DNA of 35,981 nt. It comes from a virus. Taxonomy: Duplodnaviria > Heunggongvirae > Uroviricota > Caudoviricetes. Under the pieces are notes generated by a model. It worked only from the letters and a program-made list of their open reading frames with translations. It was not told the origin of the DNA and searched no databases. This document shows positions 1 through 28,208 of the stretch, piece by piece. The stretch is from positions 1 through 35,981 of the IMG/VR virus record IMGVR_UViG_2563366990_000012, one strand, 5' to 3'. The translations under genes were made by a program, and so were the position numbers. How positions within the stretch are numbered: the stretch's first letter is position 1; each line of letters starts with the position of its first letter.

Positions 1-1362
1 ATGTTTAAACCGGAACTCCTTTCCCCGGCGGGAACGCTGAAAAATATGCGTTACGCTTTCGCTTATGGCGCAGATGCTGTTTATGCGGGCCAGCCGCGTT
101 ACTCCCTGCGTGTGCGCAACAACGAATTCAACCACGAAAATCTTCAGCTCGGCATCAATGAAGCCCACGCGCTGGGGAAAAAGTTTTATGTCGTGGTCAA
201 CATTGCACCGCACAACGCCAAGCTGAAAACCTTTATCCGTGACCTGAAACCGGTGGTGGAAATGGGGCCGGATGCGCTGATTATGTCCGATCCAGGGCTG
301 ATTATGCTGGTGCGTGAGCACTTCCCTGAAATGCCGATCCATCTCTCGGTACAGGCTAACGCCGTGAACTGGGCGACGGTGAAATTCTGGCAGCAAATGG
401 GCCTGACCCGCGTGATCCTCTCTCGCGAGCTGTCGCTGGAAGAGATTGAAGAGATCCGCAATCAGGTGCCGGATATGGAGATCGAGATCTTCGTTCACGG
501 TGCGCTGTGCATGGCCTACTCCGGTCGCTGCCTGCTCTCTGGCTATATCAACAAGCGCGACCCGAACCAGGGTACCTGCACCAACGCCTGCCGCTGGGAG
601 TACAACGTCCAGGAAGGGAAAGAAGATGACGTTGGCAACATCGTACACAAGTACGAGCCAATTCCGGTGCAAAATGTTGAGCCGACGCTGGGTATCGGCG
701 CGCCAACCGACAAAGTGTTTATGATCGAAGAAGCCCAGCGTCCGGGCGAGTATATGACCACGTTTGAAGATGAGCACGGCACTTACATCATGAACTCGAA
801 AGATCTGCGCGCCATCGCCCATGTTGAACGCCTGACCAAAATGGGCGTGCATTCGCTGAAAATCGAAGGCCGTACCAAATCTTTCTACTATTGCGCACGC
901 ACCGCGCAGGTTTACCGTAAAGCTATCGATGACGCCGCTGCGGGCAAACCGTTCGATACCAGCCTGCTGGAAACGCTGGAAGGTCTGGCGCATCGTGGCT
1001 ATACCGAAGGTTTCCTGCGTCGTCATACCCACGACGATTATCAGAACTACGAATACGGTTATTCGGTTTCTGACCGCCAGCAGTTTGTTGGTGAGTTTAC
1101 CGGTGAGCGCAAGGGGGAGCTCGCGGCGGTAGCGGTGAAAAATAAATTCTCCGTTGGCGACAGCCTTGAGCTAATGACGCCGCAAGGCAACATTAACTTT
1201 ACCCTTGAGCATATGGAAAACGCCAAAGGTGAAGCAATGCCGGTCGCACCAGGCGATGGTTATACTGTGTGGCTCCCGGTGCCGCAGGATCTCGAACTGA
1301 ATTACGCGCTGCTGATGCGTAATTTCTCCGGTGAAACCACGCGTAACCCCCACGGTAAGTGA
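1..1362 (+). CDS. yegQ: U32-family peptidase-like protein YegQ (23S rRNA 5-hydroxycytidine synthase RlhA), 453 aa
   Basis: Full-length ORF starting MFKPELLSPAGTLKNMRYAFAYGADAV, recognised as E. coli YegQ; the known chromosomal neighbour of cyaR and the P2 locI site. Confidence 0.9.
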   Translation: MFKPELLSPAGTLKNMRYAFAYGADAVYAGQPRYSLRVRNNEFNHENLQLGINEAHALGKKFYVVVNIAPHNAKLKTFIRDLKPVVEMGPDALIMSDPGLIMLVREHFPEMPIHLSVQANAVNWATVKFWQQMGLTRVILSRELSLEEIEEIRNQVPDMEIEIFVHGALCMAYSGRCLLSGYINKRDPNQGTCTNACRWEYNVQEGKEDDVGNIVHKYEPIPVQNVEPTLGIGAPTDKVFMIEEAQRPGEYMTTFEDEHGTYIMNSKDLRAIAHVERLTKMGVHSLKIEGRTKSFYYCARTAQVYRKAIDDAAAGKPFDTSLLETLEGLAHRGYTEGFLRRHTHDDYQNYEYGYSVSDRQQFVGEFTGERKGELAAVAVKNKFSVGDSLELMTPQGNINFTLEHMENAKGEAMPVAPGDGYTVWLPVPQDLELNYALLMRNFSGETTRNPHGK

Positions 1363-1446
1363 TTAATTTCGATTATTTTTCCCGGATGAAAAATTCTTAG
1401 AAACCGATCACATACAGCTGCATTTATTAAGGTTATCATCCGTTTC

Positions 1447-1533
1447 GCTGAAAAACATAACCCATAAAATGCTAGCTGTACCAGGAACCACCTCCTTAGC
1501 CTGTGTAATCTCCCTTACACGGGCTTATTTTTT
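1447..1533 (+). ncRNA. cyaR: CyaR (RyeE) CRP-dependent Hfq-binding sRNA
   Basis: Sequence GCTGAAAAACATAACCCATAAAATGCTAGCTGTACCAGGAACCACCTCCTTAGCC followed by terminator hairpin and T-run matches my recollection of CyaR; lies in the yegQ-ogr intergenic region as in E. coli K-12. The 3' end overlaps the prophage att core. Confidence 0.8.
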
Positions 1534-3591: not shown

Positions 3592-6039
3592 TTAACCGTC
3601 ATGCATCATGCTGGCACGGGCGCGCGCACGTTTATCCCGCTCGTATTTTTCGAGCGCATCCTGTAACTGGCGGTCAAGCTGTGTCCCCGGCGCAGTACCA
3701 CCCGTCAGGCTGATGTGATATTCGTTTTTACTCTGGTCCACATAAGAGCGGCCAGCCGGTGCCGTGACCGGCTGATAAGCCTGATAGCCTGCATAAGAGC
3801 TGGTCGCCGGAATATAACCACCGGTGCCATACGTGGCGGCATGAGTTCTGGCGGCGGTCTGGTCAAGTGTGTCTGACTCTTTGTTGATAACACCGAGTTT
3901 TTCCAGTACCCAGTCAATACCGCTGCGCAGTTTGTTGAACGCATTAAGCGGCAGCATCAGCGCGTCAGCCAGTGCCTGCCCGAACATGACGCCCGTGTCA
4001 CGGCAACGGTTCAGGGTGTCCTGTGTGGCTTTAACCGGAGCAATCAGGTTTGTAAACCACTGCCACGCGGCCTGTAACTTTTCGCCCAGCCAGTCAAACA
4101 CCGGCTTAAGTGGCGTGAACAGCTCCCCCACCGGCGCAAATGCCGCTTTCAGCCCTTCAACCACACCGCCAAAGAATGCGCTGACAGGCTCCCAGTATTT
4201 ACGGATAAGCAACGCCCCGGCGACAATGGCAGCCACCACGGCCACAACCGGCCAGCTAATCGCACCGATGGCCGTCATAACGGCACTACCAACCGTCGTG
4301 AAGATTGCCCCCATTGCGCCTGCTGCCGCGATAATGGCATTGATGCCGGTGATAACCGGCCAGGCTACAAGGCCAATGGCACCGATGATGCCAGTCAGCA
4401 CCAGTGCACCGCCGGCAATGATGCCGATGGTTGACGCCAGTGATTTGTTTTTCTGTATCCAGCCGTCGAGTTTTAACACATACTTTGTGGCCGTCTGCGT
4501 GAGCTTACGCAGTGCGCCTTCCTGCTGGTCAAACAGGTCAGTCCCCACCGCCTCATAAGCGGACTGAAACTCCTTAAAGTCACCGCCGAGATTGTCCTGC
4601 ATAATATTTACCAGCTCTGAGGTCTTCCCGTCCGAGGCTTTAAACGCAGCGGTCAGTTTGTCCAGCTTTCCGGTTGAGGCGACAGTCATCAGCACGGCGG
4701 CGGCTGAGCTGGCCTCCTCCCCGAAAATGGTTTTCATGTATTCAGCCTGCTGGGCAGTACCGAGCCGGTTTTTCTCAAAACTGGCCTGCATTTCTTTCAG
4801 AATGGTAAATACTGGTCGGGTGTTTCCCTTGCTGTCTGAGGTTTTCACTCCAAGCTCTTTGAGTGCATCCCATGCTTTTCCCGTCGGTGCCTGCAGGCGG
4901 CTTAACACGGCACGGCTTCCCGTCCCCGCCATTGAGCCTGTGATTTTTGCATCATGCAGCGCCCCGACCATTGCGGCGGTTTCTTCAATGCTGACACCGG
5001 CATTTTTTGCCACAGGTGCGGCATAGGTCAGCGCATCGCTCATGCCGTCAAAATCGGCGGCGGTTTTGTTCATCGTCATGGAGAGAACATCCCCGATATG
5101 AGCGACCTTATCGTTTGAAAGCTGAAAGGCGGATTTCATCCCCATCAGCAGGGCGGCGTTTTCTTCCATCGTGCGGCGGTTCGCCAGCGCCATATTCAGC
5201 GTGACCGGCGTTGCCGCCTGAATGGCATCAACATCCCCACCCGCTTTCGCGATGATTATCTGTGCACCGGCCGCATCATCCGCCGAGGCGGCGGTATTGT
5301 CGCCGAGCTGGCGCGCCTGTTTGCGTAGTGCGGTCATTTCGGCGGAGTCTTTTGCCACACCCAGCACGGCCTGCAATTCTGAGTTTTTCTGCGCAAACTC
5401 ATAACCGGACATCAGCAACTTAACTCCGGCCATCGTTTCCGCCGCCGCAATCCCCACACCGGCAGCGCCCACTGAGGCCATATTTCCGGCCAGTTCCTTT
5501 CCGGCCTGATAACGCTGTTTTACTGCATTAAGTTTTGCCTGTTGCGCACTGACACGCGCCAGCGCGTCACGCTGCCGGTTAAGCTGTGCGGTGGTTTCAC
5601 TGATACGGTTTTTCAGTCCCTGCTCATCATGTGCAAGATTGCGGGTATTAATTCCCACAGCGGCCAGTTCCCGCTGCTGGCGCTTAACGGAATCCGTCAG
5701 GCGGTTATATTTCGCCTGTAAGTCCTCCGCCGCACGCTTTGCGGATTCCAGCACTTTCGCCTGAGCACGGGTCGGACGTTCAGTGTTTTTAAACTGTGTG
5801 GCAAGTGCTTCGGCTTCCTGCCGTGCCTTTTCAAGTGCATGACCAGTCACGGCAAGCTGTGCGCTGGTCTTGCGAAATCCCTCAATACGGGATGCGTGAC
5901 CGTTCAGCTCGCGCAGTGATTTTTGTGTTTCCCGGATATCCCCCGACAGCGACTTACTCGCTGTACGGATGGATTTAAACGGGCGGGATGCCTGGTCAAC
6001 AGCCCTGAGCAATACCTGTAATTTTACATTGTTACTCAT
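3592..6039 (-). CDS. T: Tail tape measure protein gpT, 815 aa
   Basis: Long coiled-coil/Ala-Gly-rich protein with hydrophobic glycine-zipper central region; position after E/E'. Confidence 0.92.
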   Translation of the reverse strand: MSNNVKLQVLLRAVDQASRPFKSIRTASKSLSGDIRETQKSLRELNGHASRIEGFRKTSAQLAVTGHALEKARQEAEALATQFKNTERPTRAQAKVLESAKRAAEDLQAKYNRLTDSVKRQQRELAAVGINTRNLAHDEQGLKNRISETTAQLNRQRDALARVSAQQAKLNAVKQRYQAGKELAGNMASVGAAGVGIAAAETMAGVKLLMSGYEFAQKNSELQAVLGVAKDSAEMTALRKQARQLGDNTAASADDAAGAQIIIAKAGGDVDAIQAATPVTLNMALANRRTMEENAALLMGMKSAFQLSNDKVAHIGDVLSMTMNKTAADFDGMSDALTYAAPVAKNAGVSIEETAAMVGALHDAKITGSMAGTGSRAVLSRLQAPTGKAWDALKELGVKTSDSKGNTRPVFTILKEMQASFEKNRLGTAQQAEYMKTIFGEEASSAAAVLMTVASTGKLDKLTAAFKASDGKTSELVNIMQDNLGGDFKEFQSAYEAVGTDLFDQQEGALRKLTQTATKYVLKLDGWIQKNKSLASTIGIIAGGALVLTGIIGAIGLVAWPVITGINAIIAAAGAMGAIFTTVGSAVMTAIGAISWPVVAVVAAIVAGALLIRKYWEPVSAFFGGVVEGLKAAFAPVGELFTPLKPVFDWLGEKLQAAWQWFTNLIAPVKATQDTLNRCRDTGVMFGQALADALMLPLNAFNKLRSGIDWVLEKLGVINKESDTLDQTAARTHAATYGTGGYIPATSSYAGYQAYQPVTAPAGRSYVDQSKNEYHISLTGGTAPGTQLDRQLQDALEKYERDKRARARASMMHDG

Positions 6040-6515: not shown

Positions 6516-7034
6516 TCACAGGCCGATATTGCGGCGGTGTTGCTCCAGCCGGTCGACGCCGTTCACCTTCTCAATCATGTTGATGGTGTCGATTTCGACC
6601 AGCTCCTTACCGTCCATCGTCAACTTGAAATAAGTACAAATCACCGGGAGTTTCGATTCGGTATCCTCTCCCTGTTTACCCTCTCCGGTATCGACTTCTT
6701 TCTGACGCCCACGCATGACCACTTCGACGGCCACCGTTTCGCCGGTATCGTCGCGCTGGTAAGAACCAGCAAAACGAATCGGTACGGCATCAGCACTGGT
6801 TGCAGCGTAAAGCTCCCAGATAACCGAATCCGGGAATCCACCGAGCGACCACTCCATTGACAGAGCATCATCATCAAGGCCGAGGTCTACCGGTGCGCTG
6901 CCGTTCATCCCCGCACCGCGATAGTTTTCGAGCTTACGGGTCAGTTTTGGCAGCGTGACGGACTTTGCAACGCCCTGATAGCTGTAGCCGTTCAGAAAGA
7001 CGTTCATTAACTTGAGTTTGCGCGGCATTGCCAT
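6516..7034 (-). CDS. FII: Major tail tube protein gpFII, 172 aa
   Basis: Position and length match P2 FII, directly downstream of FI. Confidence 0.9.
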   Translation of the reverse strand: MAMPRKLKLMNVFLNGYSYQGVAKSVTLPKLTRKLENYRGAGMNGSAPVDLGLDDDALSMEWSLGGFPDSVIWELYAATSADAVPIRFAGSYQRDDTGETVAVEVVMRGRQKEVDTGEGKQGEDTESKLPVICTYFKLTMDGKELVEIDTINMIEKVNGVDRLEQHRRNIGL

Positions 7035-7046
7035 CGGTCAGGCTCC

Positions 7047-8237
7047 TTAATTGCTGTTAACCGAAGTGACCAGACTTGCCAGGTATCTGGAAGTAATACG
7101 CTGGCGCAGGGTCAGGTTTTCGAGAGGAGGCACCGGGGTATAGTCGTAGTCGATATACAGTTTTCCGGCCTTGAGGGTTTCCGCATCGTTGGATTCTTCG
7201 CTGAACCAGCATGTGCCATCCACGATATAACCGTTGTTTTTCAGTTCACGGAATTTGGCATTGATGCCGTCAATGATGTCGCGAATCAGCGTTGCGGTGA
7301 TGGGCTTATCAATAGCCCACATGTGCGCCTCAGCCATCGTGTCGGCCAGTACCTGCGCGGTGCGTGTGTAGCTTTCAAAGAGGAACAGCGGGTCATCAGA
7401 GCAGGTACGGTTACCCCAGAAACGGAAACCGTCGCGGCGAACCAGCGTTGTGACGCCTGCCTCGTTCAGCAGGTCAGCATCAGTGCCTGGCTTCTGCAAA
7501 TCCCAGAAGACGGATGCACTGATGCCGGTAACACCGTTCACCCCGACGTTGGACAGCGTTTTATGCCAGCCCTGCTCCTGGTCGATTTTAGCGCGCAGAC
7601 CCAGCGCACGAGCGGTGGCATACGCGGTGGCGGTGGTACTGGTAACCGTATCCCATGCGAGGAAATCCGGCCAGATAACCATCAGCTCACGCTGGCTGAA
7701 ATTCTGGCGGTAGGCTTTCACCTCGGAAATGGTTTTACAACCCCATGCGCTGATATACCCGAAGGCATTCAGTTCCTGGCATACCGATGCCAGTGCGACG
7801 GCGACCTCTTTGGTGTCCAGTCCCGGTACGCCGAGAATGCGCGGTTTAACGCCGGTAACCGACTCAGCCCCCATCAGGGCTTTCAGTCCGGTGTACTGAC
7901 CGTTTTCGTCGGTGGTGCCGATAATATTGGAAACAGTCTGCGCGAGTTTCGTTTCCTCGTCGTCGCCGGTGCCGTCTTCCACGCGCACAACAACGGTGAC
8001 CGGTTTTGACTGGTCAGCGATGGCCTGTAACGACGCCGCCAGCGTGCCTTTTTTACCGGCCTTTGCAATTGCGCTCTGCACATTGGTAATCAGCACAGGT
8101 TTATTGAGGGGGAATGTTTCCGCATCCGCATCGCTGGCCGTGCAGACCATGCCGACAATGGCAGTGGATACGGTGGAAATGACGCGGGTGCCGTCGTTAA
8201 TCTCCAGCACCTGCACGCCGTGATGATAGTCACTCAT
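7047..8237 (-). CDS. FI: Contractile tail sheath protein gpFI, 396 aa
   Basis: MSDYHHGVQVLEINDGTRVISTV...; the track ORF 7047..8351 was trimmed to the Met that gives the P2 FI length. Confidence 0.9.
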   Translation of the reverse strand: MSDYHHGVQVLEINDGTRVISTVSTAIVGMVCTASDADAETFPLNKPVLITNVQSAIAKAGKKGTLAASLQAIADQSKPVTVVVRVEDGTGDDEETKLAQTVSNIIGTTDENGQYTGLKALMGAESVTGVKPRILGVPGLDTKEVAVALASVCQELNAFGYISAWGCKTISEVKAYRQNFSQRELMVIWPDFLAWDTVTSTTATAYATARALGLRAKIDQEQGWHKTLSNVGVNGVTGISASVFWDLQKPGTDADLLNEAGVTTLVRRDGFRFWGNRTCSDDPLFLFESYTRTAQVLADTMAEAHMWAIDKPITATLIRDIIDGINAKFRELKNNGYIVDGTCWFSEESNDAETLKAGKLYIDYDYTPVPPLENLTLRQRITSRYLASLVTSVNSN

Positions 8238-8330
8238 CCGTCTAACTCCGTGGTTAATGGGTGAGTGGTATTTTCTGTTGTGCAGAGCATGAGACGCTAT
8301 TTGACCTGGCTGGTCAGTGGATGAAACAAC

Positions 8331-8357
8331 AGATAAAGAAAAGGCGGACAATCCGCC
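8331..8357 (-). terminator. Putative rho-independent terminator between the Z/fun-position cargo and the FI late promoter
   Basis: Minus-strand hairpin GGCGGATTGTCCGCC followed by a T-rich tract (TTTTCTTTATC). Confidence 0.45.
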
Positions 8358-8649
8358 CGCCTGTCATGATTTGTACTCACTTATTTCCCGACTGACAATT
8401 TACATAGCCAAAACGCTATCAAATCTGACAGTCTGCTTTGAGCGAGAAGCGGAAGTTCAATGTGATAAAGCTCAGGAACATTGTCGTTGATGATGATAAA
8501 GAGGATCAGACTAACTTAGCACTTCTCATCACGTTGATAAGGCATAGAAACTGCAAACACTATTGTGAATATAATTTCACTATAGTAAATTAAAGTAAGC
8601 TCTTTTCGTTCGTTATTACATAAAATAAAGTTCTCTCTAAGGTTGAAAA

Positions 8650-9093
8650 ATGTTAGATATCAGAATGTCACGACCATCTGAAGCATCAGAGATCATACAA
8701 ATCTGGAAGAGTTCAGTGGATGCTACCCACGACTTTCTTACAGGTCATGACCGACAAGAAATCGAAAAAGAAGTTATCGGCTTTTTCTCAGAAACTCCTG
8801 TATGGGTTGCAACAAATCAGGATGACCAACCGCTAGGATTTATGTTTTTGCATGAGGGGCATCTGGAGGCACTTTTTGTAGCAGGCTCTGCTCGCGGACT
8901 TGGCGTCGGAAAACGTTTGATATCTCATGCACTGGCGCTGCATCCAGAGCTAAGCGTTGATGTAAATGAACAAAACCAGCAGGCTGTAGGGTTTTATCAG
9001 CATATGGGTTTTCAGGTATCAGGGCGTTCCGATCTGGATAATCAGGGAAGGCCATACCCCTTGTTGCATCTGAGAATGGCCAATAACATGTAA
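8650..9093 (+). CDS. GNAT-family N-acetyltransferase, 147 aa (cargo at the Z/fun position)
   Basis: Acetyl-CoA binding motif region ...EALFVAGSARGLGVGKRLISHAL... and QQAVGFYQHMGF typical of GNAT folds; about 40% GC versus about 55% for the backbone. Confidence 0.75.
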   Translation: MLDIRMSRPSEASEIIQIWKSSVDATHDFLTGHDRQEIEKEVIGFFSETPVWVATNQDDQPLGFMFLHEGHLEALFVAGSARGLGVGKRLISHALALHPELSVDVNEQNQQAVGFYQHMGFQVSGRSDLDNQGRPYPLLHLRMANNM

Positions 9094-9113
9094 CCAATGT
9101 GGCAGAGAAGATA

Positions 9114-9698
9114 TCATTGATTTTTTTGGCTAAAAGCCACGATGTAAGAACAGCTCTGCTCACTATCTGGATTGCTCATTTGGTACTCGCTTGCAAAGGT
9201 AAGGGCAAGACAGTCACCGGCACGTAAATGATGGGTCTGATTTTTGACTCGAAAATCAAGGCTGCCACTCATCATCCAAAGCGTTTGCCCGGAAAGATGC
9301 TCATTTGCGGAGGCGGGTATCGTCAGCTCACCCATTGCAGGGATTTCAACTTTGATCAGTTCCGGGCATGCCCCCGCAGGAGACAAAGACCAACGGGTGA
9401 TGCCTGATTGCTCATCCGTCCAGTGCTGTTGCTGATGAGCAAAACGAACCAGGGAATTCTGATGTTGCTCAAGCTCTGCAAAGAGTTTAGATAGCGTTAC
9501 ATTCATGGCGTTGGCCAGGCGGCTAAGGATAGTTGCACTAGGGCTGGAGATGCCTCGTTCAATCTTACTAATCATGGCCTGACTGACGCCCGATCGTTGA
9601 GCAAGCTCTGTTACAGTCAAATTGCGAGCCTTCCTGTGTTTAAGCAATAAACGTGCAATATCGCTATCTACTATCTGATTTTTAAATTTTTTATCCAT
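9114..9698 (-). CDS. XRE-family HTH transcriptional regulator with C-terminal cupin domain, 194 aa
   Basis: N-terminal HTH LLKHRKARNLTVTELAQRSGVSQAMISKIERG plus a C-terminal cupin-like segment. Start trimmed to MDKKFKNQ, which is preceded by GAGAGGG. Confidence 0.75.
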   Translation of the reverse strand: MDKKFKNQIVDSDIARLLLKHRKARNLTVTELAQRSGVSQAMISKIERGISSPSATILSRLANAMNVTLSKLFAELEQHQNSLVRFAHQQQHWTDEQSGITRWSLSPAGACPELIKVEIPAMGELTIPASANEHLSGQTLWMMSGSLDFRVKNQTHHLRAGDCLALTFASEYQMSNPDSEQSCSYIVAFSQKNQ

Positions 9699-9933
9699 TT
9701 CCGCCCTCTCTTTCACCAACCTGATTATGCCATTACATAAATTGGCCTGAAATAAATGATTTTGTAAGTCTGTAAATTCACTACTCCTAAGCGCGGCACT
9801 TCGTTTATACGCACCTATAACCTTAAAATATGAGTTGGTAAGCTTAACGTCCGCTTTTGGCACATAGCGGACTGTCAGATTAGGCTTTACTCTGTGCTAT
9901 AGATATGTAAGCTCACACCAGAGATCATACAAC

Positions 9934-10461
9934 TTATTGCGGCATTTCCGGCCATTCGGGATTTGCAGGATCCACACGACTGACCAGAACGCTGTAGCGT
10001 TCCCATGCTTCCAGTCGGCTGCGTTCCTCATCCGTCGCCATATTCAGCCTGACAGCGCGTTCCAGCGGCAAAATCACGGATTCAGCTTCGGAAAGTAAAG
10101 CTGCCTTTTGTGATTCTGCCTGTTGCTCCTGTTCATCTGCCGTATAAATCCGCTTAATCACGGCACCATCCTTAAACATCCATTTACCTGAGTCATCAGC
10201 ACGTCGGTTGGAGGTAATATCAGGAACCTCGACAACGCTGAAACCTTCAGGGTTAAGCGTTGAAGCATCTCTGGTGATGCCGACAATTATATTATTCTCG
10301 TCGTAAACAATCTTTATCGTGTCTTCCTGAAAATTACTTACTTCCTCATACCAGTTTTTTCCCTCTTCGGACCATAACCAGATAACATCAAAATTTTTTG
10401 TCAGTTGATATTGGGCAACAGTTTTTGGATTACCCGCAGTAATATTTTTTAAATGCTGCAT
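9934..10461 (-). CDS. G: Tail fiber assembly chaperone gpG, 175 aa
   Basis: Immediately downstream of H; length equals P2 G. Confidence 0.85.
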
Positions 10462-10464
10462 AAA

Positions 10465-12510
10465 TTACACCTGTGCGACGTTATACCATGTGCCATTGAT
10501 GTATTTTTGTATTGGCCTGAATACTGCGGGGTCATCACCATCGACTTCACCGACAATACCAAGCCCGGTAATTACGTGCCCTGCTTTCTCATACATCACC
10601 CCTTTCTGCATGGTCTGGACAACACGTGTGCCAAGTCTGATATCTCTCACATAGCGGGAATCAAAGTTACCGTAATCCGAGGGATTAACACGCCCCGTAA
10701 TATTTATGGTCTTATTACTTTGAATGCTTCCGGAAACAAAGCGCATAACATGGACGTTATTAGCATAAACATCCAGATTACCATCGCCATTTTGTTTAAA
10801 TCCGGTGTCGTTATCACCAAGAACAATAGAGTTCCCACCCAACGCGTTATTCGTGCCAAGTGCCAGCCCGCCATCAATCCTGGCACCATTACCAACAGAC
10901 ACAACTCCTGTTCTTAAGTTGATGCCGAATGGCCTTAATGACCCAATATCTCCATTTTCACCCTCATTTTCTCGTGTAGGAATGATATACAGGTTTTCTT
11001 CAGAACGGCGAAAAATAGCACCAAAAGATGAATTAAATATCCTCAGCGCATTGACTGTAGATATTTTTACTTCACTACTGAAAAGGGCTTTAACAAGAAC
11101 ATACAGAGCATCCCATTTAAGATTCATCAGGTCTTTTGTTGTGGTGCTCTGGCGACTTCTCCATTTGAAATATTCATTGCCGTTGTCACCTGTTTCAAAC
11201 CACATATATGAATCAGTATCGCTGTCGGCATCATTTTTAAATCCAATCTTTGCCCAGTCAGTATTTCGAATCCAGGCAAGGATTGAGTCGTTTTCAAAAG
11301 TAAGCCCGCCGGACAAGGTATCGCCATTTTTTTGCACGGCGTTCCCGGCTCGGTTTACCGTTTCCTGTAAACCGAGATATTCGATAACGGCGGCAACGGT
11401 CGATTTAGCCAGAATATCCCGCCCGACTTTTGTCAGGGTCGCCAGGCTGGCAACATCATTCCCCGTAAAATACGGAAACCTGTCTGCCGCAGTAGCAAGC
11501 CCCGCCAGCGCCGTCAAAGTGGCATCTTTCGGTTGCTTACCCGCAAGCGCATTAGTCATGGTGGTAGCAAAATTCGGGTCATTGCCCAGCGCCGCCGCCA
11601 GCTCGTTCAGCGTATTCAGTGCGTCAGGCGACGAGTCTACAAGGGCGGCAATCGCGGCCATAACGAAAGCCGTGTTTGCGATCTGAGTATTATTCGTTCC
11701 CTGTCGCGCAGTTGGCGTCGTTGGCGTTCCGGTCAGTGCAGGGCTGTTTAATGGCGCTTTCTTGTTCGTTTCATCCATTACCGTCTTAACGGCTTTTGGT
11801 GTTGCGGCGAGCGTTTCAGACATGCTGTTGGTCGCACTACTTAGCTGGACAAGACCTTTTCGCGCTGTGGTAGCGTCCTGTGCGGTATATTTCCCGTTAG
11901 CAAGGTCATACGCGGCCTTTACCGCTTTCGGCGTTGCGGCCAGTGTTTCAGACGTGCTGTTGGTCGCACTGCTTAACTGAGTAAAACCTTTGGCGGTCAG
12001 CGAGGCGTCCGGGTGACGTCGTGACTGTTCGTGCTCTGCAATTTTGTCATCAACGTAATCCTGTGTCGCCATCACCGTTGTGGTGTCAATGGTCAGCTCC
12101 ACCGAGGCCACACTGCTGACGATGATGACCATGCGACAGGTCTGCGAACGCCCTGAGCCTTCGGCAAGAGCTGGCTTATAACTTTCGGCCATGTTCGCCA
12201 CGGCAATTAACGTTCCCGCATCATCGTACAGGCCAAGCTCACGCATCCAGAAACCGCCCACCTCCGGCGGAATAACCAGCTCTGCGATAATATAATTACT
12301 GTTTCGTTTGTCCTGGCTGATTTTGTTCAGCGTATGTCGCCAGACTTCGTGGATAAGCCCGGTCTGTCCGGCATCCGGGACAGGCAATTTACCACCGCCA
12401 TCCCCGACGGCCATCGTGGTAATGTTGACCTTCCGCCCTCCCGGTGCGGTTGCCGCTGCCAGCTTTGCTGCACCGGCAGTGGTGATAACGGTTTTGAATT
12501 TTGTGCTCAT
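10465..12510 (-). CDS. H: Tail fiber protein gpH, 681 aa
   Basis: N-terminus MSTKFKTVITTAGAAKLAAATAPGG, internal phage fiber repeats (SETLAATPKAVK twice), C-terminal receptor-binding region. Confidence 0.9.
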   Translation of the reverse strand: MSTKFKTVITTAGAAKLAAATAPGGRKVNITTMAVGDGGGKLPVPDAGQTGLIHEVWRHTLNKISQDKRNSNYIIAELVIPPEVGGFWMRELGLYDDAGTLIAVANMAESYKPALAEGSGRSQTCRMVIIVSSVASVELTIDTTTVMATQDYVDDKIAEHEQSRRHPDASLTAKGFTQLSSATNSTSETLAATPKAVKAAYDLANGKYTAQDATTARKGLVQLSSATNSMSETLAATPKAVKTVMDETNKKAPLNSPALTGTPTTPTARQGTNNTQIANTAFVMAAIAALVDSSPDALNTLNELAAALGNDPNFATTMTNALAGKQPKDATLTALAGLATAADRFPYFTGNDVASLATLTKVGRDILAKSTVAAVIEYLGLQETVNRAGNAVQKNGDTLSGGLTFENDSILAWIRNTDWAKIGFKNDADSDTDSYMWFETGDNGNEYFKWRSRQSTTTKDLMNLKWDALYVLVKALFSSEVKISTVNALRIFNSSFGAIFRRSEENLYIIPTRENEGENGDIGSLRPFGINLRTGVVSVGNGARIDGGLALGTNNALGGNSIVLGDNDTGFKQNGDGNLDVYANNVHVMRFVSGSIQSNKTINITGRVNPSDYGNFDSRYVRDIRLGTRVVQTMQKGVMYEKAGHVITGLGIVGEVDGDDPAVFRPIQKYINGTWYNVAQV
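11780..11985. repeat. Imperfect ~138-bp tandem duplication inside H encoding the repeated fiber motif
   Basis: DNA segments GCGGCGAGCGTTTCAGACATGCTGTTGGTCGCACT and GCGGCCAGTGTTTCAGACGTGCTGTTGGTCGCACT about 138 bp apart; the protein shows a duplicated LSSATNS(T/M)SETLAATPKAVK motif. Confidence 0.7.
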
Positions 12511-15019: not shown

Positions 15020-15805
15020 ATGTTCAGTGATAATGTGATTAATGCGTGGTGGTTTATCTCTTTGTATCTATTTTTATTAATAGCATTAACATTTGTTACC
15101 TTTGGTAAAAGTAATCTTATGAGGTTTATTGCACATCATTTCAATCTTGAGTATTCAGACAGAAAGTTAAAAATGCTCGACAAAAAATGGCGCGACATTC
15201 AACTATTTAAAACAATTAACGGAATCAATGTATCAGGCATCGAAGATGTGAGAATGATACAGCAGGGGCTGATTGATGGAAAACTAAAAACATCGTATTT
15301 TTTCCTTACTCGCTTCTGGGGTGACATAACAAAACCACCACACATAATTAAAACAATAATTGTAATTCTGGCCAGTATTATTTATATTCTCTTCGCATGT
15401 TATATACACAACAAACAATCCGCTATAGTAAGAGATGCCATAGGCATACCATATAAAAATATGATGTACTATGTTTATAGTGACAAAGTTCTTTTATCCT
15501 TCAAAAATAAAACAGTTGAACTTAATAAAACTTATAGCCTTGCCGATTGCAAGACCCTGCAAAACGTATTTATAAAAGACACACTTCCTGAAATCGCCTG
15601 CAATAAGCTCTTACAGCTAAACGAGGAGGACTCCGAATGGTTAAGTCAGGAGATTAAAGATAATAACAGCCACAAAAAAGCATTATTAATACTATCCCTC
15701 GTCTATTTCATTTCAGGCCTGCTTATATTCCTGTCATATACAAAATTCCTTTACGCCAATAAGAAGGTTTTAGAATACAAAGCATCAAATAAAAACCACT
15801 CATAA
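15020..15805 (+). CDS. AT-rich predicted membrane protein, 261 aa, at the P2 orf30 position between V and S
   Basis: AGGAGA 5 nt upstream of ATG; three hydrophobic segments (AWWFISLYLFLLIALTFVTF, IIKTIIVILASIIYILFACYI, ALLILSLVYFISGLLIFLSY); about 28-30% GC; opposite strand to flanking late genes. Confidence 0.7.
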   Translation: MFSDNVINAWWFISLYLFLLIALTFVTFGKSNLMRFIAHHFNLEYSDRKLKMLDKKWRDIQLFKTINGINVSGIEDVRMIQQGLIDGKLKTSYFFLTRFWGDITKPPHIIKTIIVILASIIYILFACYIHNKQSAIVRDAIGIPYKNMMYYVYSDKVLLSFKNKTVELNKTYSLADCKTLQNVFIKDTLPEIACNKLLQLNEEDSEWLSQEIKDNNSHKKALLILSLVYFISGLLIFLSYTKFLYANKKVLEYKASNKNHS

Positions 15806-25392: not shown

Positions 25393-26277
25393 TCAGGCGC
25401 AAGTTGGCATTGAGACCCCTTTCAGGGTATTAGGAATAATTATTTCAGGAGAAAAAATCATCACTTCCTCTCCAGATTTTTTGAGATGCGCTGTATATTG
25501 CAATGAATACTCAACTTGCGGAAATCCATTATAAATATCTTTAATTTCCTTAGCGTTATCATAAGAAACAAGCCAATTTGGGAAATTAATTTCTGTGAGT
25601 TTCTTCATAACCAATACATGGTCATCATGCTCATAAAAATTCCTGTAAAGCCCTTGCCCTTTAATATAGTAAGGAGGATCCAAATACAAAAGAATTTTAT
25701 TTTTATCCACCTTTCCCATATTATCCATAAAATTCAAGGCATCAAGAAAATCCAAAGCATCCAGATTAGTTACTACTATTCTTTGATTATAATTTGCTAT
25801 CTTCTCAATTCTTGAAATTAAATCCGCCCTGTTAAAGCGAACATCCATTTTCCATTTTCCATTTTGTGATTTCCCGCCTATAACCCCCGCCTTGAGAATA
25901 CCTGAACGATTTGTTCTATTTAAGAAAAACGCAGCAAAGCCAACCTCAAGCTTAGTAAACTCAGAAGGATTCGAAATAACATAGCGATGAAAAGACCATT
26001 CATCCATATCTATCTTTGCTCGGCTAATAAGTCGGCAAAGCTCATCAGTATCACTAACAACAGATGACCAAAAAGAATAAACAGCAAAATCTGCATCATT
26101 TATATAGATTTTACGGACATACTCTTCCAATAATAATTCTAAAGCCACCCCTGCACCACCAGCGTAAGGTTCTGCATATGCTCCATCATTCAACGAGTTT
26201 TTTTCAATAACATCTTTTAAAAAGTAAGATAACTTACCTTTCCCGCCGGGGTATCTTAATGGAGTATAAAATTTCAT
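25393..26277 (-). CDS. Dam-family (alpha-class, D12-like) N6-adenine DNA methyltransferase, 294 aa
   Basis: N-terminal PLRYPGGK and SAM-binding EPYAGGAGV motifs, catalytic DPPY (LLYLDPPYYIKG) near the C-terminus; GAGG 6 nt upstream of ATG; about 33% GC. Confidence 0.85.
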   Translation of the reverse strand: MKFYTPLRYPGGKGKLSYFLKDVIEKNSLNDGAYAEPYAGGAGVALELLLEEYVRKIYINDADFAVYSFWSSVVSDTDELCRLISRAKIDMDEWSFHRYVISNPSEFTKLEVGFAAFFLNRTNRSGILKAGVIGGKSQNGKWKMDVRFNRADLISRIEKIANYNQRIVVTNLDALDFLDALNFMDNMGKVDKNKILLYLDPPYYIKGQGLYRNFYEHDDHVLVMKKLTEINFPNWLVSYDNAKEIKDIYNGFPQVEYSLQYTAHLKKSGEEVMIFSPEIIIPNTLKGVSMPTCA

Positions 26278-26314
26278 AAATCCCTCTCATTCCTGATTTT
26301 GTAGTTTATCAGTT

Positions 26315-26332
26315 TCTGGACATCCATGTCCA
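26315..26332. promoter_or_regulatory. Perfect palindrome CTGGACAT-CC-ATGTCCAG between the ParB-like gene and the methyltransferase gene
   Basis: 8-bp arms and 2-bp centre in the 70-bp intergenic spacer; candidate operator or attenuator hairpin. Confidence 0.5.
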
Positions 26333-26346
26333 GATGTAGACAAATC

Positions 26347-27852
26347 TCACTCACTCCAAATAAGGCTTAATAACAACTCAAAGTTATCCCACTCAGTGTT
26401 GACAGCCTCTTTTGAGGGAATTAAGTGTGGGTTATGTACATACTGCTGCAATGAACCATCATGTTTAGTTATTTGGCTCGAGAAAGTTATTACAGCCGTA
26501 CATTGACTCCCCGTCATCTTTTTATTTTCCCGAAGGAAATTAGCACACATTTTAACCTTATCATGAAGCCCTGGAGTTCTATGTGGTTCCTTAAATTGTA
26601 ACTTGTTTTCTTCAACAAAAGTGCTTACAGAGAGATCTATAAATATTCTCAACAATATTGAGATAGCATTAGGGGTGTTATCAAATGTCAGATGCGACTT
26701 AAGCTCATTAAATATTCTAGAGCATTTCTTATGCCCTCTAAAATTAAATTTCACATAAGATGGCACCAACACATTACGATCTACTTTAGGAGGAGTTTTT
26801 CCCTTGTTTTTATTCTGTTCCGTACCCGAAACTTTAGATTTACTCTCTTCTGTGCCTACATGTCTAGAATAATCATCTTCCTGTTTATCCACACCTGTAT
26901 TCTTTAAGGCATCACCTTCTGAAAGACCTACTTTCTTTACACTCACAGATGCATCATTTTTGTCAATAGAATCATGTTTTTTCTCTGTAAGAAAAGATTT
27001 AGGCTCCAGTAAACTCCACGGCTTATCTAAAAGAGATTCTGAAGGTTTTATTTTTTGTTCAATAATAAATGTAACCCTGTCATCTTGGCTACGAATCCTA
27101 TTAACAGTAAAACAAGCCTTACCTTTATCATCCTCTTCAATCATTACATCTAAAATATTTTTTAATTGTGCACAAAAACGTTCATAAGGCTGATATGAGT
27201 ATAGAACTCCATTAATGCTTTTTAAATTAAAATAATCCCTCACCTTTAAATCACCAAAAAGACGCGTGATGTTTGTGATTTTTAAAAGTCTTTTTTTAGC
27301 AATTATCTCTTTATATAAATCAGTATTGAACTCTATAAATGTAAGTATTTGATTACCAAATGACTGCTTACCCATCCTAGCCAGATGTCGTGCTTTTTCT
27401 GTTGCAGTCCATTCAACTCTTCCAACTCCAGCATTTTGACCAGTATGCTTTAAATTGACCCAATGCTCATATTCATCATCGTCAAAAAGAACGCAGTTAT
27501 CTATAACATTAATATCTTTAAGCTGAGTAATCTTAAGTTTTTCAAAAGCTTTCCGTGCTTTTTCTGTTGGTGCAAGTCTAGGAGAGTGTAAAAGTTTAAG
27601 GGCTGTAACTCGACGATTACCTTCAGCAACGACGAAAAACCCAGATTCCTCTTCACTAGGATAAACTAATATGTTTTCAGACGGATCTAAACCTTTCGAA
27701 GCAATATCTTTAGCCAAGCGATAAATGCGGTCGTACTGCAAGTCAAGCATCTTGGCAATAGCATCACGCTGATTTTCTGCTGACGTCGGGAAACGAGGGT
27801 TATCAACATCCAAAAGTAACTTATTGATATTCATTGATTTTAGTTGATTCAT
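26347..27852 (-). CDS. ParB/Sulfiredoxin-like domain protein with a large uncharacterised C-terminal region, ~501 aa
   Basis: N-terminal ParB-like motif (LLDVDNPRFP ... FFVVAEGNRRVTALKLL), Lys/Glu-rich low-complexity linker, about 170-aa C-terminal domain. Start placed at MNQLKS, 7 nt after AGAGGA; the ORF could start up to 27921. Confidence 0.7.
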   Translation of the reverse strand: MNQLKSMNINKLLLDVDNPRFPTSAENQRDAIAKMLDLQYDRIYRLAKDIASKGLDPSENILVYPSEEESGFFVVAEGNRRVTALKLLHSPRLAPTEKARKAFEKLKITQLKDINVIDNCVLFDDDEYEHWVNLKHTGQNAGVGRVEWTATEKARHLARMGKQSFGNQILTFIEFNTDLYKEIIAKKRLLKITNITRLFGDLKVRDYFNLKSINGVLYSYQPYERFCAQLKNILDVMIEEDDKGKACFTVNRIRSQDDRVTFIIEQKIKPSESLLDKPWSLLEPKSFLTEKKHDSIDKNDASVSVKKVGLSEGDALKNTGVDKQEDDYSRHVGTEESKSKVSGTEQNKNKGKTPPKVDRNVLVPSYVKFNFRGHKKCSRIFNELKSHLTFDNTPNAISILLRIFIDLSVSTFVEENKLQFKEPHRTPGLHDKVKMCANFLRENKKMTGSQCTAVITFSSQITKHDGSLQQYVHNPHLIPSKEAVNTEWDNFELLLSLIWSE

Positions 27853-27873
27853 CAACATATCCTCTGTTGAATC

Positions 27874-27906
27874 TTTATGATAAAAATTAATTATTTTTAT
27901 CATAAA
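27874..27906. promoter_or_regulatory. 33-bp inverted repeat (13-bp perfect arms TTTATGATAAAAA / TTTTTATCATAAA) in the 5' leader of the ParB-like gene
   Basis: Read directly from the sequence; centred about 35 bp upstream of the preferred start codon. Confidence 0.55.
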
Positions 27907-28208
27907 TGATAGCGTAAACATAGTCTTATGAACGACATCAGCCCTGAAGCTTCAAAACTATCATTTACGTTTGCGAGGCACCATCTATCACATTGATTTA
28001 TAATAAGTATCTTTATCTTCACTGCATTGCTCTCAAAAAATCACATAGATGGAAATTCCCCGTTGACACACTCCCAAGTGATGCAGATACATTTCAAGTG
28101 CTTCATACACATGATAACGGCTATCCCCCTAAATTCTGTGCGTTTCTTTTCCCTCCAGCACAAGGTTGAAATATCTTGCGTGCAGCTTTACTTTGTGAAT
28201 CTTTGTCA

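What the first reader, a model, noticed from the sequence alone, without database searches (positions are those of the whole stretch)
8400..9900. GNAT acetyltransferase and convergent XRE-HTH/cupin regulator in the Z/fun tail-module hotspot
The G-FI intergenic position, where P2 carries the Z/fun exclusion gene, holds a 147-aa GNAT acetyltransferase and a convergently oriented 194-aa HTH-cupin regulator, both lower in GC than the flanking tail genes. Small GNAT enzymes in mobile elements include tRNA-acetylating toxins, so this pair could be a regulated abortive-infection or exclusion cargo.
Basis: partly seen in the sequence, partly recalled or inferred. Interest (0 to 1): 0.6.

Follow-up and report, generated by a model that had tools for sequence, protein, structure and literature searches.

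The report
Regulated acetyltransferase cassette in P2 hotspot
A P2-type prophage carries, at its known cargo hotspot between two tail genes, a widespread two-gene cassette (a YjaB-family acetyltransferase plus its own small-molecule-sensing repressor) that looks like ordinary accessory cargo, not a toxin or a known anti-phage system.

Summary
Between tail genes FI and G of a P2-like prophage lie a 147-aa GNAT (8650-9093, +) and a convergent 194-aa XRE-HTH/cupin regulator (9114-9698, -).

The toxin or abortive-infection reading is not supported. The GNAT belongs to the YjaB family of E. coli lysine acetyltransferases (NCBIfam equivalog, 229 bits against a cut-off of 134; 54% identity to PDB 2kcw). 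It shows no similarity to AtaT/TacT-type toxins, has no antitoxin-like partner and hits nothing in PADLOC.

The pair is an old, strongly conserved module (dN/dS 0.05-0.10). It occurs on chromosomes of Serratia, Klebsiella aerogenes, Edwardsiella and Acinetobacter, on Pantoea plasmids (published as 'Onion Virulence Region C') and in two lambdoid phages. A tandem operator-like motif upstream of the GNAT is kept wherever the regulator is present and is missing in Proteus, which lacks the regulator.

Best reading: a ligand-released XRE-cupin repressor controls an N-acetyltransferase, as in Pseudomonas PA1884/PA1885. The substrate is unknown.

The 1.46-kb cassette is bounded by the inverted-repeat hairpins already reported for the P2 Z region. 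The same elements bound other cargos in P2-like and lambdoid phages and separate cassettes in plasmid and chromosomal arrays.

Verdict: a new member of a known kind, of modest interest.

The parts
8422..8457 (+). Left arm of the cassette's terminal inverted repeat. It contains the L-type hairpin GTCTGCT-TTGAGCGAGA-AGCGGAA (8431-8454).
   Evidence: A 36-nt inverted repeat, 83% complementary to 9846-9881. It marks the left limit of identity with the same cassette in E. coli M15 (from 8425) and in phage Evi (from 8430). P2-EC67, with a different cargo, shares the backbone up to 8445, and GenBank annotates an inverted repeat there.
8558..8590 (+). Operator-like tandem motif: CACTATTGTGAAT (8558-8570) and CACTATAGTAAAT (8578-8590), 60-90 nt upstream of the GNAT start. 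It overlaps a weak sigma-70-like TTGTGA-N17-TAAATT.
   Evidence: This is the one block upstream of the GNAT that stays essentially unchanged from E. coli through Serratia to Acinetobacter, while the surrounding sequence diverges completely (alignment A1). It is present in all 9 loci checked that carry the regulator and absent upstream of the Proteus GNAT, which has no regulator. That it is an operator, and the promoter assignment, are inference: the promoter scan found nothing at 9 of 12 matches or better.
8650..9093 (+). YjaB-family GNAT N-acetyltransferase, 147 aa.
   Evidence: NCBIfam NF007807 (PRK10514) equivalog, 229.5 bits against a cut-off of 134. 54% identity over 141 aligned residues to E. 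coli YjaB, PDB 2kcw. AlphaFold model pLDDT 84, with 2kcw the top Foldseek hit at TM 0.86. Acetyl-CoA motif R82-G-L-G-V-G87 and Tyr116, equivalent to the catalytic YjaB Y117, are both present.
9114..9698 (-). XRE-HTH / cupin transcription regulator, 194 aa, convergent with the GNAT.
   Evidence: HTH_3 60.9 bits. Full-length alignment to the PuuR profile at 42 bits, well below its ortholog cut-off of 211. AlphaFold model pLDDT 88 shows five helices followed by a beta-barrel, with best PDB match 1y9q. No histidine is invariant in the cupin half of alignment A4.
9846..9881 (+). Right arm of the terminal inverted repeat. It contains the R-type hairpin GTCCGCT-TTTGGCACAT-AGCGGAC (9849-9872).
   Evidence: 1 match in the window against 0.01 expected by chance. 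As single-stranded DNA the region folds at -9 kcal/mol, z = -3.15. It marks the right limit of identity with the M15 copy (to 9883) and the Evi copy (to 9872). The same element bounds at least 37 different cargos at this position in other P2-like phages.
8342..8362 (-). Terminator-like hairpin with a T-run on the late-gene strand, between the cassette and FI. It belongs to the P2 backbone, not to the cassette.
   Evidence: The only terminator-like site found in 8200-10000. It lies outside the region shared with non-P2 copies of the cassette.

Best explanation
The insert is a self-contained 'sense-and-acetylate' accessory cassette, a moron giving lysogenic conversion, and not a toxin or a dedicated anti-phage system.

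Proposed mechanism: the XRE-cupin protein binds as a dimer or tetramer to the tandem CACTATWGTRAAT sites that overlap the GNAT promoter and keeps the gene off. A small molecule bound by the metal-free cupin domain releases it. The YjaB-type enzyme then transfers acetyl from acetyl-CoA either to an amine on that molecule or a related one (detoxification or modification), or to lysines of cell proteins.

The 1.46-kb unit entered the P2 Z/fun position through its hairpin-containing inverted-repeat ends. These ends also carry it in lambdoid phages, plasmid arrays and chromosomes.

Shown: gene identities, family membership, conservation of the pair, conservation and co-loss of the upstream motif, purifying selection, and the cassette boundaries.

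Inferred: repression, ligand release, the substrate, and any benefit to the lysogen.
For: Enzyme:
- YjaB-family membership by profile, sequence and fold, with the acetyl-CoA motif and the catalytic Tyr intact.
- YjaB is an experimentally supported lysine acetyltransferase and was not growth-inhibiting when overexpressed (PMC6199490).

Regulator:
- XRE-cupin architecture.
- In Pseudomonas this family consists of local, ligand-released repressors of neighbouring enzyme or transporter genes. One member, PA1884, has the neighbouring GNAT PA1885 as its only target (PMC7901475).

Linkage:
- The convergent pair, 20-99 nt apart, is kept in E. coli (4 contexts), Serratia, K. aerogenes, Edwardsiella, Raoultella, Pseudescherichia, Leclercia, Pantoea and 4 Acinetobacter species.
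- Six of 6 regulators at >=60% identity in the genome scan have the GNAT next to them; 0 of 74 regulators at about 40% identity do.
- The upstream motif is present in 9 of 9 loci that have the regulator and lost in Proteus, which lacks it.

Selection:
- dN/dS is 0.05-0.10 at dS of about 1 for both genes, and every copy checked is intact.

Distribution points away from defence:
- The pair sits at a fixed locus in many assemblies of S. marcescens and K. aerogenes (it is indexed in 529 and 391 blocks of the assembly collection), with metabolic neighbours.
- The GNAT has no PADLOC hit.
Against: No experiment on this pair exists and the substrate is unknown. The regulator-operator link rests only on conservation and co-loss.

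The genes are convergent, whereas most characterised XRE-cupin units are divergent or co-directional. No copy of the motif was found upstream of the regulator itself.

The promoter scan found no site at its threshold.

The cassette sits in a hotspot where many sibling cargos carry defence-type domains (PMC13586616). It has been captured by three kinds of temperate phage, which would also fit a role in phage competition.
Confidence: 0.6

Rival explanations
1. Anti-phage or exclusion cargo. The regulator holds the acetyltransferase off until infection or a stress signal. The enzyme then acetylates a phage protein or a host factor and blocks the superinfecting phage, with or without killing the cell.
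For: The position is the one where P2 carries the T5-exclusion gene fun(Z). Five of 10 cargo proteins from the same position in other P2-like phages hit PADLOC models: TIR, Aga REase, AbiGi, a protease and PDC-S33. A 2026 survey places about 16% of P2 defence systems in the tail-gene hotspot (PMC13586616). The cassette recurs in two lambdoid phages.
Against: The GNAT has no PADLOC hit at E<=1. The nearest characterised relative is a housekeeping-type protein acetyltransferase. The module is stably kept at fixed chromosomal sites in several species, among metabolic genes. XRE-cupin regulators characterised so far respond to metabolites. None of 91 Z/fun inserts sampled from IMG/VR holds this cassette, and only 4 of 5,426 complete E. 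coli genomes carry it in a P2 prophage. This prophage already has PD-Lambda-5 at its main hotspot.
Confidence: 0.15
2. Type II toxin-antitoxin module of the GNAT class (like AtaT/AtaR, TacT/TacA, KacT/KacA or ItaT/ItaR). The GNAT would acetylate charged tRNA and the HTH protein would neutralise it.
For: Only generic features: a small GNAT next to a DNA-binding protein on a mobile element.
Against: No toxin chain is matched at E<=1 by sequence or appears among the top 50 fold matches, while YjaB matches at 1e-49 and 1e-18. The partner is a 194-aa XRE-cupin encoded on the opposite strand downstream, not a small upstream co-transcribed RHH/DUF1778 protein. In Proteus mirabilis the GNAT is kept without the regulator in many assemblies, which a toxin could not tolerate. 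YjaB overexpression is not toxic.
Confidence: 0.03
3. A neutral hitch-hiker. The cassette works as a regulated acetyltransferase in its chromosomal and plasmid homes, but in this prophage it is just the product of a recent hairpin-mediated cassette swap and gives nothing to phage or lysogen.
For: The window copy differs from the chromosomal copy in E. coli M15 by a single synonymous change in the two genes, but by about 2% from the other P2-borne copies. That points to recent, independent arrival. The cassette is very rare at this position.
Against: Both genes are intact in all four other P2-borne copies, which come from the USA, Japan and Mozambique. P2 capsids leave little room for useless DNA (established knowledge of P2 packaging; also noted in PMC9122126).
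Confidence: 0.15

Closest known systems
E. coli YjaB (PDB 2kcw), a GNAT lysine acetyltransferase (Christensen et al. 2018, PMC6199490)
   Same: Same length (147 aa) and 54% identity over 141 aligned residues. Same NCBIfam equivalog model, the same fold (TM 0.86), and the acetyl-CoA motif and catalytic Tyr are conserved.
   Different: This is a separate paralogous clade, 80-95% identical across many Enterobacterales. It is mobile and always travels with a dedicated regulator. Chromosomal yjaB is monocistronic with no such partner.
Pseudomonas aeruginosa PA1884 / PA1885, an XRE-cupin repressor whose only target is the neighbouring GNAT gene (Trouillon et al. 2021, PMC7901475)
   Same: The same two-part logic: an XRE-HTH + cupin regulator next to a small GNAT, described as a local unit exchanged horizontally.
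   Different: Here the genes are convergent. No binding or expression data exist for this pair.
P2 fun(Z) and the other Z-region morons flanked by inverted repeats (Nilsson et al. 2004, as summarised in PMC8987985; GenBank AJ512685)
   Same: The same position between G and FI, and the same flanking inverted-repeat elements. P2 itself keeps degenerate copies of both hairpins.
   Different: The cargo is unrelated. Fun(Z) is a single exclusion gene on the late-gene strand. Here the cargo is a regulated enzyme pair that is far commoner outside phages.
Pantoea ananatis 'Onion Virulence Region C' (Stumpf et al. 2018, PMC5817063)
   Same: The same two genes (444-nt 'yjaB', 585-nt 'puuR'-like) at 86.5% DNA identity with the same convergent layout. 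There the cassette sits in an array delimited by the same hairpins.
   Different: It is plasmid-borne. It is linked to onion pathogenicity only by a presence/absence correlation in 10 strains, and it has never been tested on its own.
GNAT toxins of type II TA systems (AtaT, TacT, KacT, ItaT)
   Same: Only the GNAT fold and the small size.
   Different: No detectable specific similarity. The partner, gene order and strand are all different. The GNAT survives without its partner in Proteus.
E. coli PuuR (putrescine-responsive HTH-cupin repressor)
   Same: The same domain order, with an alignment covering almost the whole protein (residues 11-180 of the 185-position profile).
   Different: The score is 42 bits against an ortholog cut-off of 211, so it is not an ortholog. 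Nothing points to putrescine as the ligand.

Membership tests
YjaB family of GNAT acetyltransferases (NCBIfam NF007807 / PRK10514) | Whole-protein score above the curated equivalog cut-off | tested here: met
   229.5 bits against a cut-off of 134, aligned over residues 1-144 of 147.
YjaB family of GNAT acetyltransferases (NCBIfam NF007807 / PRK10514) | Full-length sequence and fold similarity to the solved YjaB structure | tested here: met
   phmmer E 5.5e-49 and 54% identity. Foldseek E 1.8e-18 and TM 0.86, with the next-best hit at E 1.5e-10.
YjaB family of GNAT acetyltransferases (NCBIfam NF007807 / PRK10514) | Acetyl-CoA-binding R/Q-x-x-G-x-G/A motif and the catalytic tyrosine (YjaB Y117) | tested here: met
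   R82-GLGVG87 and Y116 are present in the window protein and invariant in the 21-sequence alignment A3. Y117 is required for YjaB activity (PMC6199490).
YjaB family of GNAT acetyltransferases (NCBIfam NF007807 / PRK10514) | Acetyl-CoA-dependent N-epsilon-lysine acetylation of proteins | not testable with these tools
   Requires an enzyme assay or an acetylome measurement.
GNAT-type toxin of a type II toxin-antitoxin system (AtaT/TacT/KacT/ItaT) | Specific sequence or structural similarity to the toxin clade | tested here: not met
   No toxin chain among the 28 PDB sequences matched at E<=1, and none among the 50 best Foldseek matches.
GNAT-type toxin of a type II toxin-antitoxin system (AtaT/TacT/KacT/ItaT) | A small RHH/DUF1778 antitoxin gene immediately upstream in the same operon | tested here: not met
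   The only ORF upstream is a 51-aa TTG ORF with no family hit that overlaps the conserved non-coding motif. The real partner is a convergent 194-aa XRE-cupin.
GNAT-type toxin of a type II toxin-antitoxin system (AtaT/TacT/KacT/ItaT) | Growth arrest on expression, relieved by the partner protein | not testable with these tools
   Only indirect evidence: YjaB overexpression was not growth-inhibiting, and Proteus keeps the GNAT without the regulator.
XRE-cupin local repressors (Trouillon et al. 2021) | N-terminal XRE-type HTH followed by a C-terminal cupin barrel | tested here: met
   HTH_3 60.9 bits. Cupin_2 reaches only 17.2 bits (below the cut-off), but the AlphaFold model (pLDDT 88) has the barrel and its best PDB match is 1y9q, the template used for this family.
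XRE-cupin local repressors (Trouillon et al. 2021) | A conserved neighbouring enzyme or transporter gene that forms a transferable unit with the regulator | tested here: met
   The GNAT is adjacent in every locus whose regulator is >=60% identical.
XRE-cupin local repressors (Trouillon et al. 2021) | A palindromic operator in the neighbour's promoter, repression, and release by a ligand | tested here: inconclusive
   A deeply conserved tandem motif, each copy with a CAC-N4-GTG/GTA core, lies upstream of the GNAT and is lost together with the regulator in Proteus. Binding, repression and ligand response were not tested.
Known anti-phage defence systems (PADLOC-DB v2.0.0) | A match of the effector protein to a defence-system model | tested here: not met
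   The GNAT has 0 families at E<=1. The regulator matches only generic XRE-HTH models (HTH_VI, capH, RmrA N-termini, control proteins).
P2 Z-region moron flanked by inverted repeats (Nilsson et al. 2004) | An insert between G and FI bounded by the conserved inverted repeats | tested here: met
   The 36-nt arms at 8422-8457 and 9846-9881 are shared with P2-EC67 and with P2 itself. The published description was read only through PMC8987985 and the GenBank annotation.
Integron gene cassette (attC-bounded) | An attC site with R''/L''/L'/R' boxes recognised by an IntI integrase, and an intI gene or attC cluster nearby | tested here: inconclusive
   Arrays of cassettes separated by R-hairpin + 15-18 nt + L-hairpin resemble attC arrays. 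GCTTAAC fits RYYYAAC, but GTTCAAT does not fit GTTRRRY. No integron integrase lies within the fetched flanks. No attC covariance model was available.

The most novel reading that the evidence does not exclude
The GNAT/regulator pair may be one cassette of an integron-like exchange system that has been described only in part.

Two different 24-bp palindromic sites flank each cargo: L, GTCCGCT-TTGAGCGAGA-AGCGGAC, and R, GTCCGCT-TTTGGCACAG-AGCGGAC. An unidentified recombinase would swap whole cassettes between any two L...R loci. This would create the Z/fun hotspot of P2-like phages, moron hotspots of lambdoid phages, and cassette arrays on Pantoea plasmids and Klebsiella chromosomes.

The exchange junction maps inside the invariant GGCAC core of the R site. 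Bases to the left of the core follow the cargo and bases to the right follow the backbone.
Probability: 0.25. Interest if true: 0.6.

Novelty: new member of a known kind. Interest (0 to 1): 0.3.

Why it matters
If the best reading is right, the finding corrects a tempting inference: not everything sitting in a phage defence hotspot is a defence gene. It also gives a compact, portable inducible-acetyltransferase module whose ligand and substrate could be found with simple screens. The module recurs in uropathogenic E. coli (next to sitABCD), in Serratia and Klebsiella aerogenes, and in onion-pathogenic Pantoea.

The more general point concerns the cassette ends. The same hairpin elements bound dozens of unrelated cargos, many with defence-type domains, in P2-like and lambdoid phages, and they separate cassettes in plasmid and chromosomal arrays. 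A 2026 survey of P2/P4 hotspots (PMC13586616) states that the recombination process that swaps these cargos still needs to be elucidated. These sites are a concrete candidate for it.

Tried and rejected
1. Toxin-GNAT reading. PDB sequence search at E<=1, NCBIfam, and Foldseek on an AlphaFold model found no toxin relatives.

2. Known defence system. PADLOC gave nothing for the GNAT and only generic HTH hits for the regulator.

3. Arsenic link. The pair lies beside an ars operon in Acinetobacter haemolyticus and beside an ArsP_1 permease in Serratia. tblastn of those genes against 12 other loci found none, so the adjacency is coincidental.

4. Ligand clue from distant regulators. The roughly 40%-identical relatives in alpha- and beta-proteobacteria and actinobacteria never have the GNAT (0 of 74), and their neighbours are heterogeneous.

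5. Hairpin as a structured RNA or DNA element. 87.7% of stem cells pair, but this is not above the shuffle control, and only one compensatory change was seen. Structure is therefore unproven, and the element may be a protein-binding palindrome. Rfam has no matching family.

6. Promoter scan. No site at >=9 of 12 matches in 8200-10000. The promoter proposed here matches only 8 of 12.

7. An operator copy upstream of the regulator. None found.

8. The 51-aa ORF at 8438-8593. No family hit, and it overlaps the conserved non-coding motif, so it was treated as spurious.

9. Decay of P2-borne copies. This was suspected from 125-aa database entries. The RefSeq copies in strains JNE25-003 and 300444 are intact, so those entries are alternative gene calls.

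10. Nilsson et al. 2004 could not be read because it is not held in the library. Its content is taken from a review and from GenBank AJ512685.
Full report
WHAT IS THERE

The window is an E. coli-type chromosome segment. It runs yegQ (1-1362), the CyaR sRNA (1445-1530), a P2-like prophage 96% identical to P2, then yegS.

The tail genes lie on the minus strand: T 3592-6039, E/E', FII 6516-7034, FI 7047-~8237, G 9934-10461, H 10465-12510, then I, J and W.

Between FI and G, where P2 has fun(Z), sit two genes:
- a 147-aa GNAT gene at 8650-9093 (+);
- a convergent gene at 9114-9698 (-) for a 194-aa protein with an XRE-type HTH and a cupin domain.

The longer GTG-initiated ORF (to 9863) is not the gene. 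RefSeq uses the ATG at 9698 in all relatives, and conservation among orthologues starts only about 60 nt upstream of it.

The cassette is 43.6% GC, against about 56% for FI and T. Gene G and the 3' half of H are equally low.

THE ENZYME

The GNAT matches the NCBIfam equivalog model for YjaB (NF007807) at 229.5 bits, against a cut-off of 134. Its next-best model, the YiaC-type NF007853 (PRK10562), scores 66 bits against a cut-off of 125.

It aligns end to end with E. coli YjaB (PDB 2kcw) at E 5.5e-49 and 54% identity. An AlphaFold model (pLDDT 84) finds 2kcw at E 1.8e-18 and TM 0.86, eight orders of magnitude ahead of any other structure.

The acetyl-CoA motif RGLGVG and the tyrosine equivalent to YjaB Y117 are present and invariant among relatives. 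Y117 is required for YjaB's acetyltransferase activity in cells (PMC6199490).

- no AtaT, TacT, KacT or ItaT chain is matched at E<=1 by sequence or appears among the 50 best fold matches;
- PADLOC has no model that matches the enzyme;
- in the screen that defined YjaB as a lysine acetyltransferase, four other GNATs inhibited growth on overexpression but YjaB did not.

THE REGULATOR AND ITS LINK TO THE ENZYME

The regulator has HTH_3 (60.9 bits) and a sub-threshold Cupin_2 hit. Its AlphaFold model (pLDDT 88) shows five helices followed by a beta-barrel, and the best PDB match is 1y9q. 1y9q is the template used to define the XRE-cupin family in Pseudomonas. No histidine is invariant in the cupin half, so the barrel is more likely a ligand sensor than a metal enzyme.

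In Pseudomonas these proteins are local repressors of neighbouring enzyme or transporter genes and are thought to be released by a metabolite. One of them, PA1884, has the adjacent GNAT PA1885 as its single target (PMC7901475).

Three observations tie this regulator to this GNAT.

1. The convergent pair is conserved wherever the regulator is >=60% identical:
 - four different E. coli contexts, Serratia marcescens, Klebsiella aerogenes, Edwardsiella piscicida, Pantoea and Acinetobacter haemolyticus;
 - all six such loci in an independent genome scan: Raoultella, Pseudescherichia, Leclercia and three more Acinetobacter species;
 - none of the 74 relatives at about 40% identity has the GNAT.

2. 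The non-coding DNA upstream of the GNAT has diverged beyond recognition between E. coli and Acinetobacter, except for one block: CACTATTGTGAAT-N7-CACTATAGTAAAT at 8558-8590. It is found at the same distance from the GNAT start in all nine loci that carry the regulator. It is missing upstream of the Proteus mirabilis GNAT, where the regulator gene is absent.

3. Both genes evolve under strong purifying selection, with dN/dS of 0.05-0.10 at dS of about 1.

I therefore read the motif as the operator, overlapping a weak promoter (TTGTGA-N17-TAAATT). The pair would be a ligand-gated acetyltransferase unit. Binding, repression and the ligand are inferred, not shown. The promoter scan found nothing at its threshold, and I found no second operator in front of the regulator gene.

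WHERE ELSE THE MODULE LIVES

At DNA level the 1.46-kb unit occurs at 97-99.7% identity in 13 of 5,426 complete E. coli genomes, four of which carry it at the same P2 position. Other homes:
- the lambdoid phage Evi, between replication genes and the Q-type antiterminator genes;
- a chromosomal island of mouse E. coli M15;
- an 81% version beside sitABCD in many E. coli;
- the inducible lambdoid phage PhiR29, beside an omptin gene, where the depositors already labelled the genes 'putative N-acetyltransferase YjaB' and 'Xre-family with cupin domain';
- Pantoea megaplasmids. In P. ananatis PNA 97-1R the two genes are the published 'Onion Virulence Region C', correlated with onion pathogenicity in a ten-strain comparison but never tested alone (PMC5817063).

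In Serratia marcescens and K. aerogenes the pair sits at one fixed chromosomal site in very many assemblies, among metabolic genes.

This distribution is that of a useful accessory metabolic or detoxification unit, not of a patchy defence system. A sample of 91 Z/fun inserts from IMG/VR falls into 37 cargo types and none is this cassette. Five of ten sibling cargo proteins tested carry defence-type domains. This cassette is thus an unusual occupant of a defence-rich site. The prophage already carries PD-Lambda-5 at its main, cos-proximal hotspot.

THE CASSETTE ENDS

The insert is bounded by a 36-nt inverted repeat (8422-8457 and 9846-9881, 83% complementary). Each arm contains a 24-nt palindrome with 7-bp arms GTCCGCT/AGCGGAC and a conserved centre. 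The centre differs between the two ends: TTGAGCGAGA on the left (L) and TTTGGCACAG on the right (R).

Identity with the non-P2 copies of the cassette stops at these elements. P2-EC67, which has a different cargo, shares the backbone up to the same elements, and GenBank annotates them as inverted repeats. P2 itself keeps degenerate copies around fun(Z).

This agrees with Nilsson et al. [quoted passage not shown] I could not read the original paper.

What I can add:
- The R element is found in more than 120 viral contigs. The DNA to its left is hypervariable and the DNA to its right falls into a few conserved backbones, both P2-like and lambdoid.
- Between neighbouring cassettes the elements form a composite, R + 15-18 nt + L. 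Examples are E. coli M15, K. aerogenes, many viral contigs, and a clear array on the Pantoea plasmid: ASCH | metallophosphoesterase | GNAT + regulator.
- Within R, centre positions 1-3 vary with the left-hand DNA. Position 10 follows the right-hand backbone: A in 14 of 14 lambdoid sites, G in 22 of 25 P2 sites and never A. The exchange junction therefore lies in the invariant GGCAC core.

A covariation test does not demonstrate a folded structure, and no recombinase was identified. Whether exchange is site-specific or uses the elements as short homologies is open.

The window's copy is almost identical to the M15 chromosomal copy, yet about 2% different from the other P2-borne copies. This suggests recent and repeated exchange.

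COMPARISON WITH KNOWN SYSTEMS, AND VERDICT

The enzyme is a member of the YjaB family: every sequence-level criterion tested is met, and activity is untestable here. The regulator is a member of the XRE-cupin class. The unit works like PA1884/PA1885, but homology to that pair was not tested.

It is not a GNAT toxin-antitoxin module, because two defining features were tested and not met. It is not a recognised defence system. It is a Z-region moron of the kind described in 2004.

I rate it a new member of a known kind, with interest 0.3.

The most novel reading still open, at a probability of about 0.25, concerns the cassette-exchange elements and not the cargo.

Noticed in passing
window 25393-27921 (- strand): The cos-proximal old/tin hotspot of this prophage holds a complete PD-Lambda-5 defence system. 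Protein A (26347-27921) scores 557 bits. Protein B (25393-26277) scores 403 bits and is a D12-class N6-adenine methyltransferase. The region is 34.8% GC.
   Followed up: partly
window 1-1530 and 35082-35981: The prophage is integrated between yegQ (Peptidase_U32) with the CyaR sRNA (1445-1530, Rfam 100.7 bits) and yegS (DAGK_cat/YegS_C), with CyaR directly abutting the phage end. From memory, not checked here, this is the site where E. coli K-12 keeps the P2 remnant ogrK.
   Followed up: partly
window 15020-15805 (+ strand): A 261-aa ORF on the strand opposite the late genes, between V and S, which is the third known P2 moron position (orf30). It is 33% GC and has no Pfam or PADLOC hit.
   Followed up: partly
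window 8431-8454 and 9849-9872; L002 5965-6030; L014 7165-7230 and 8535-8954; L319 1988-5321; more than 120 IMG/VR loci (L019-L138): A 24-nt palindromic element (GTCCGCT-N10-AGCGGAC) comes in two types with different conserved centres. It bounds variable cargo in P2-like and lambdoid phages. As an R + 15-18 nt + L composite it separates small cassettes (ASCH, metallophosphoesterase, GNATs, His_Phos_1, DUF7661) in arrays on a Pantoea plasmid and the K. aerogenes chromosome. The exchange junction maps inside the invariant GGCAC core. No recombinase was identified.
   Followed up: partly
window 10465-11300 and 9934-10461: The 3' half of tail-fibre gene H (42.5% GC) and the assembly gene G (45.1% GC) are as GC-poor as the cassette, while the 5' half of H is 55% GC. 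This fits a horizontally exchanged host-range module directly abutting the cargo site.
   Followed up: no
L003 7414-7866 (E. coli 95-3322) and L014 7245-7793 (K. aerogenes): In two chromosomal contexts a second, unrelated GNAT gene lies within 1.2 kb of the pair: a 'GNAT family N-acetyltransferase' in E. coli and an Acetyltransf_3 gene in K. aerogenes. The Pantoea plasmid (L319) also has a further GNAT about 3.7 kb upstream. It is unexplained whether acetyltransferase cassettes cluster for a reason.
   Followed up: no
L011 5001-5821 (Proteus mirabilis): Proteus mirabilis keeps the GNAT (84% identical) at a fixed site near mutS, without the regulator and without the upstream tandem motif. This is a natural 'regulator-less' variant that could be used to test constitutive expression.
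   Followed up: partly
L001 4388-4408 (phage Evi): A third, shorter GTCCGC...GCGGAC palindrome (21 nt, with a 9-nt centre between the 6-nt arms) lies inside or next to a gene annotated as antiterminator Q, about 1.6 kb from the cassette in the lambdoid phage Evi. Its significance is unknown.
   Followed up: no
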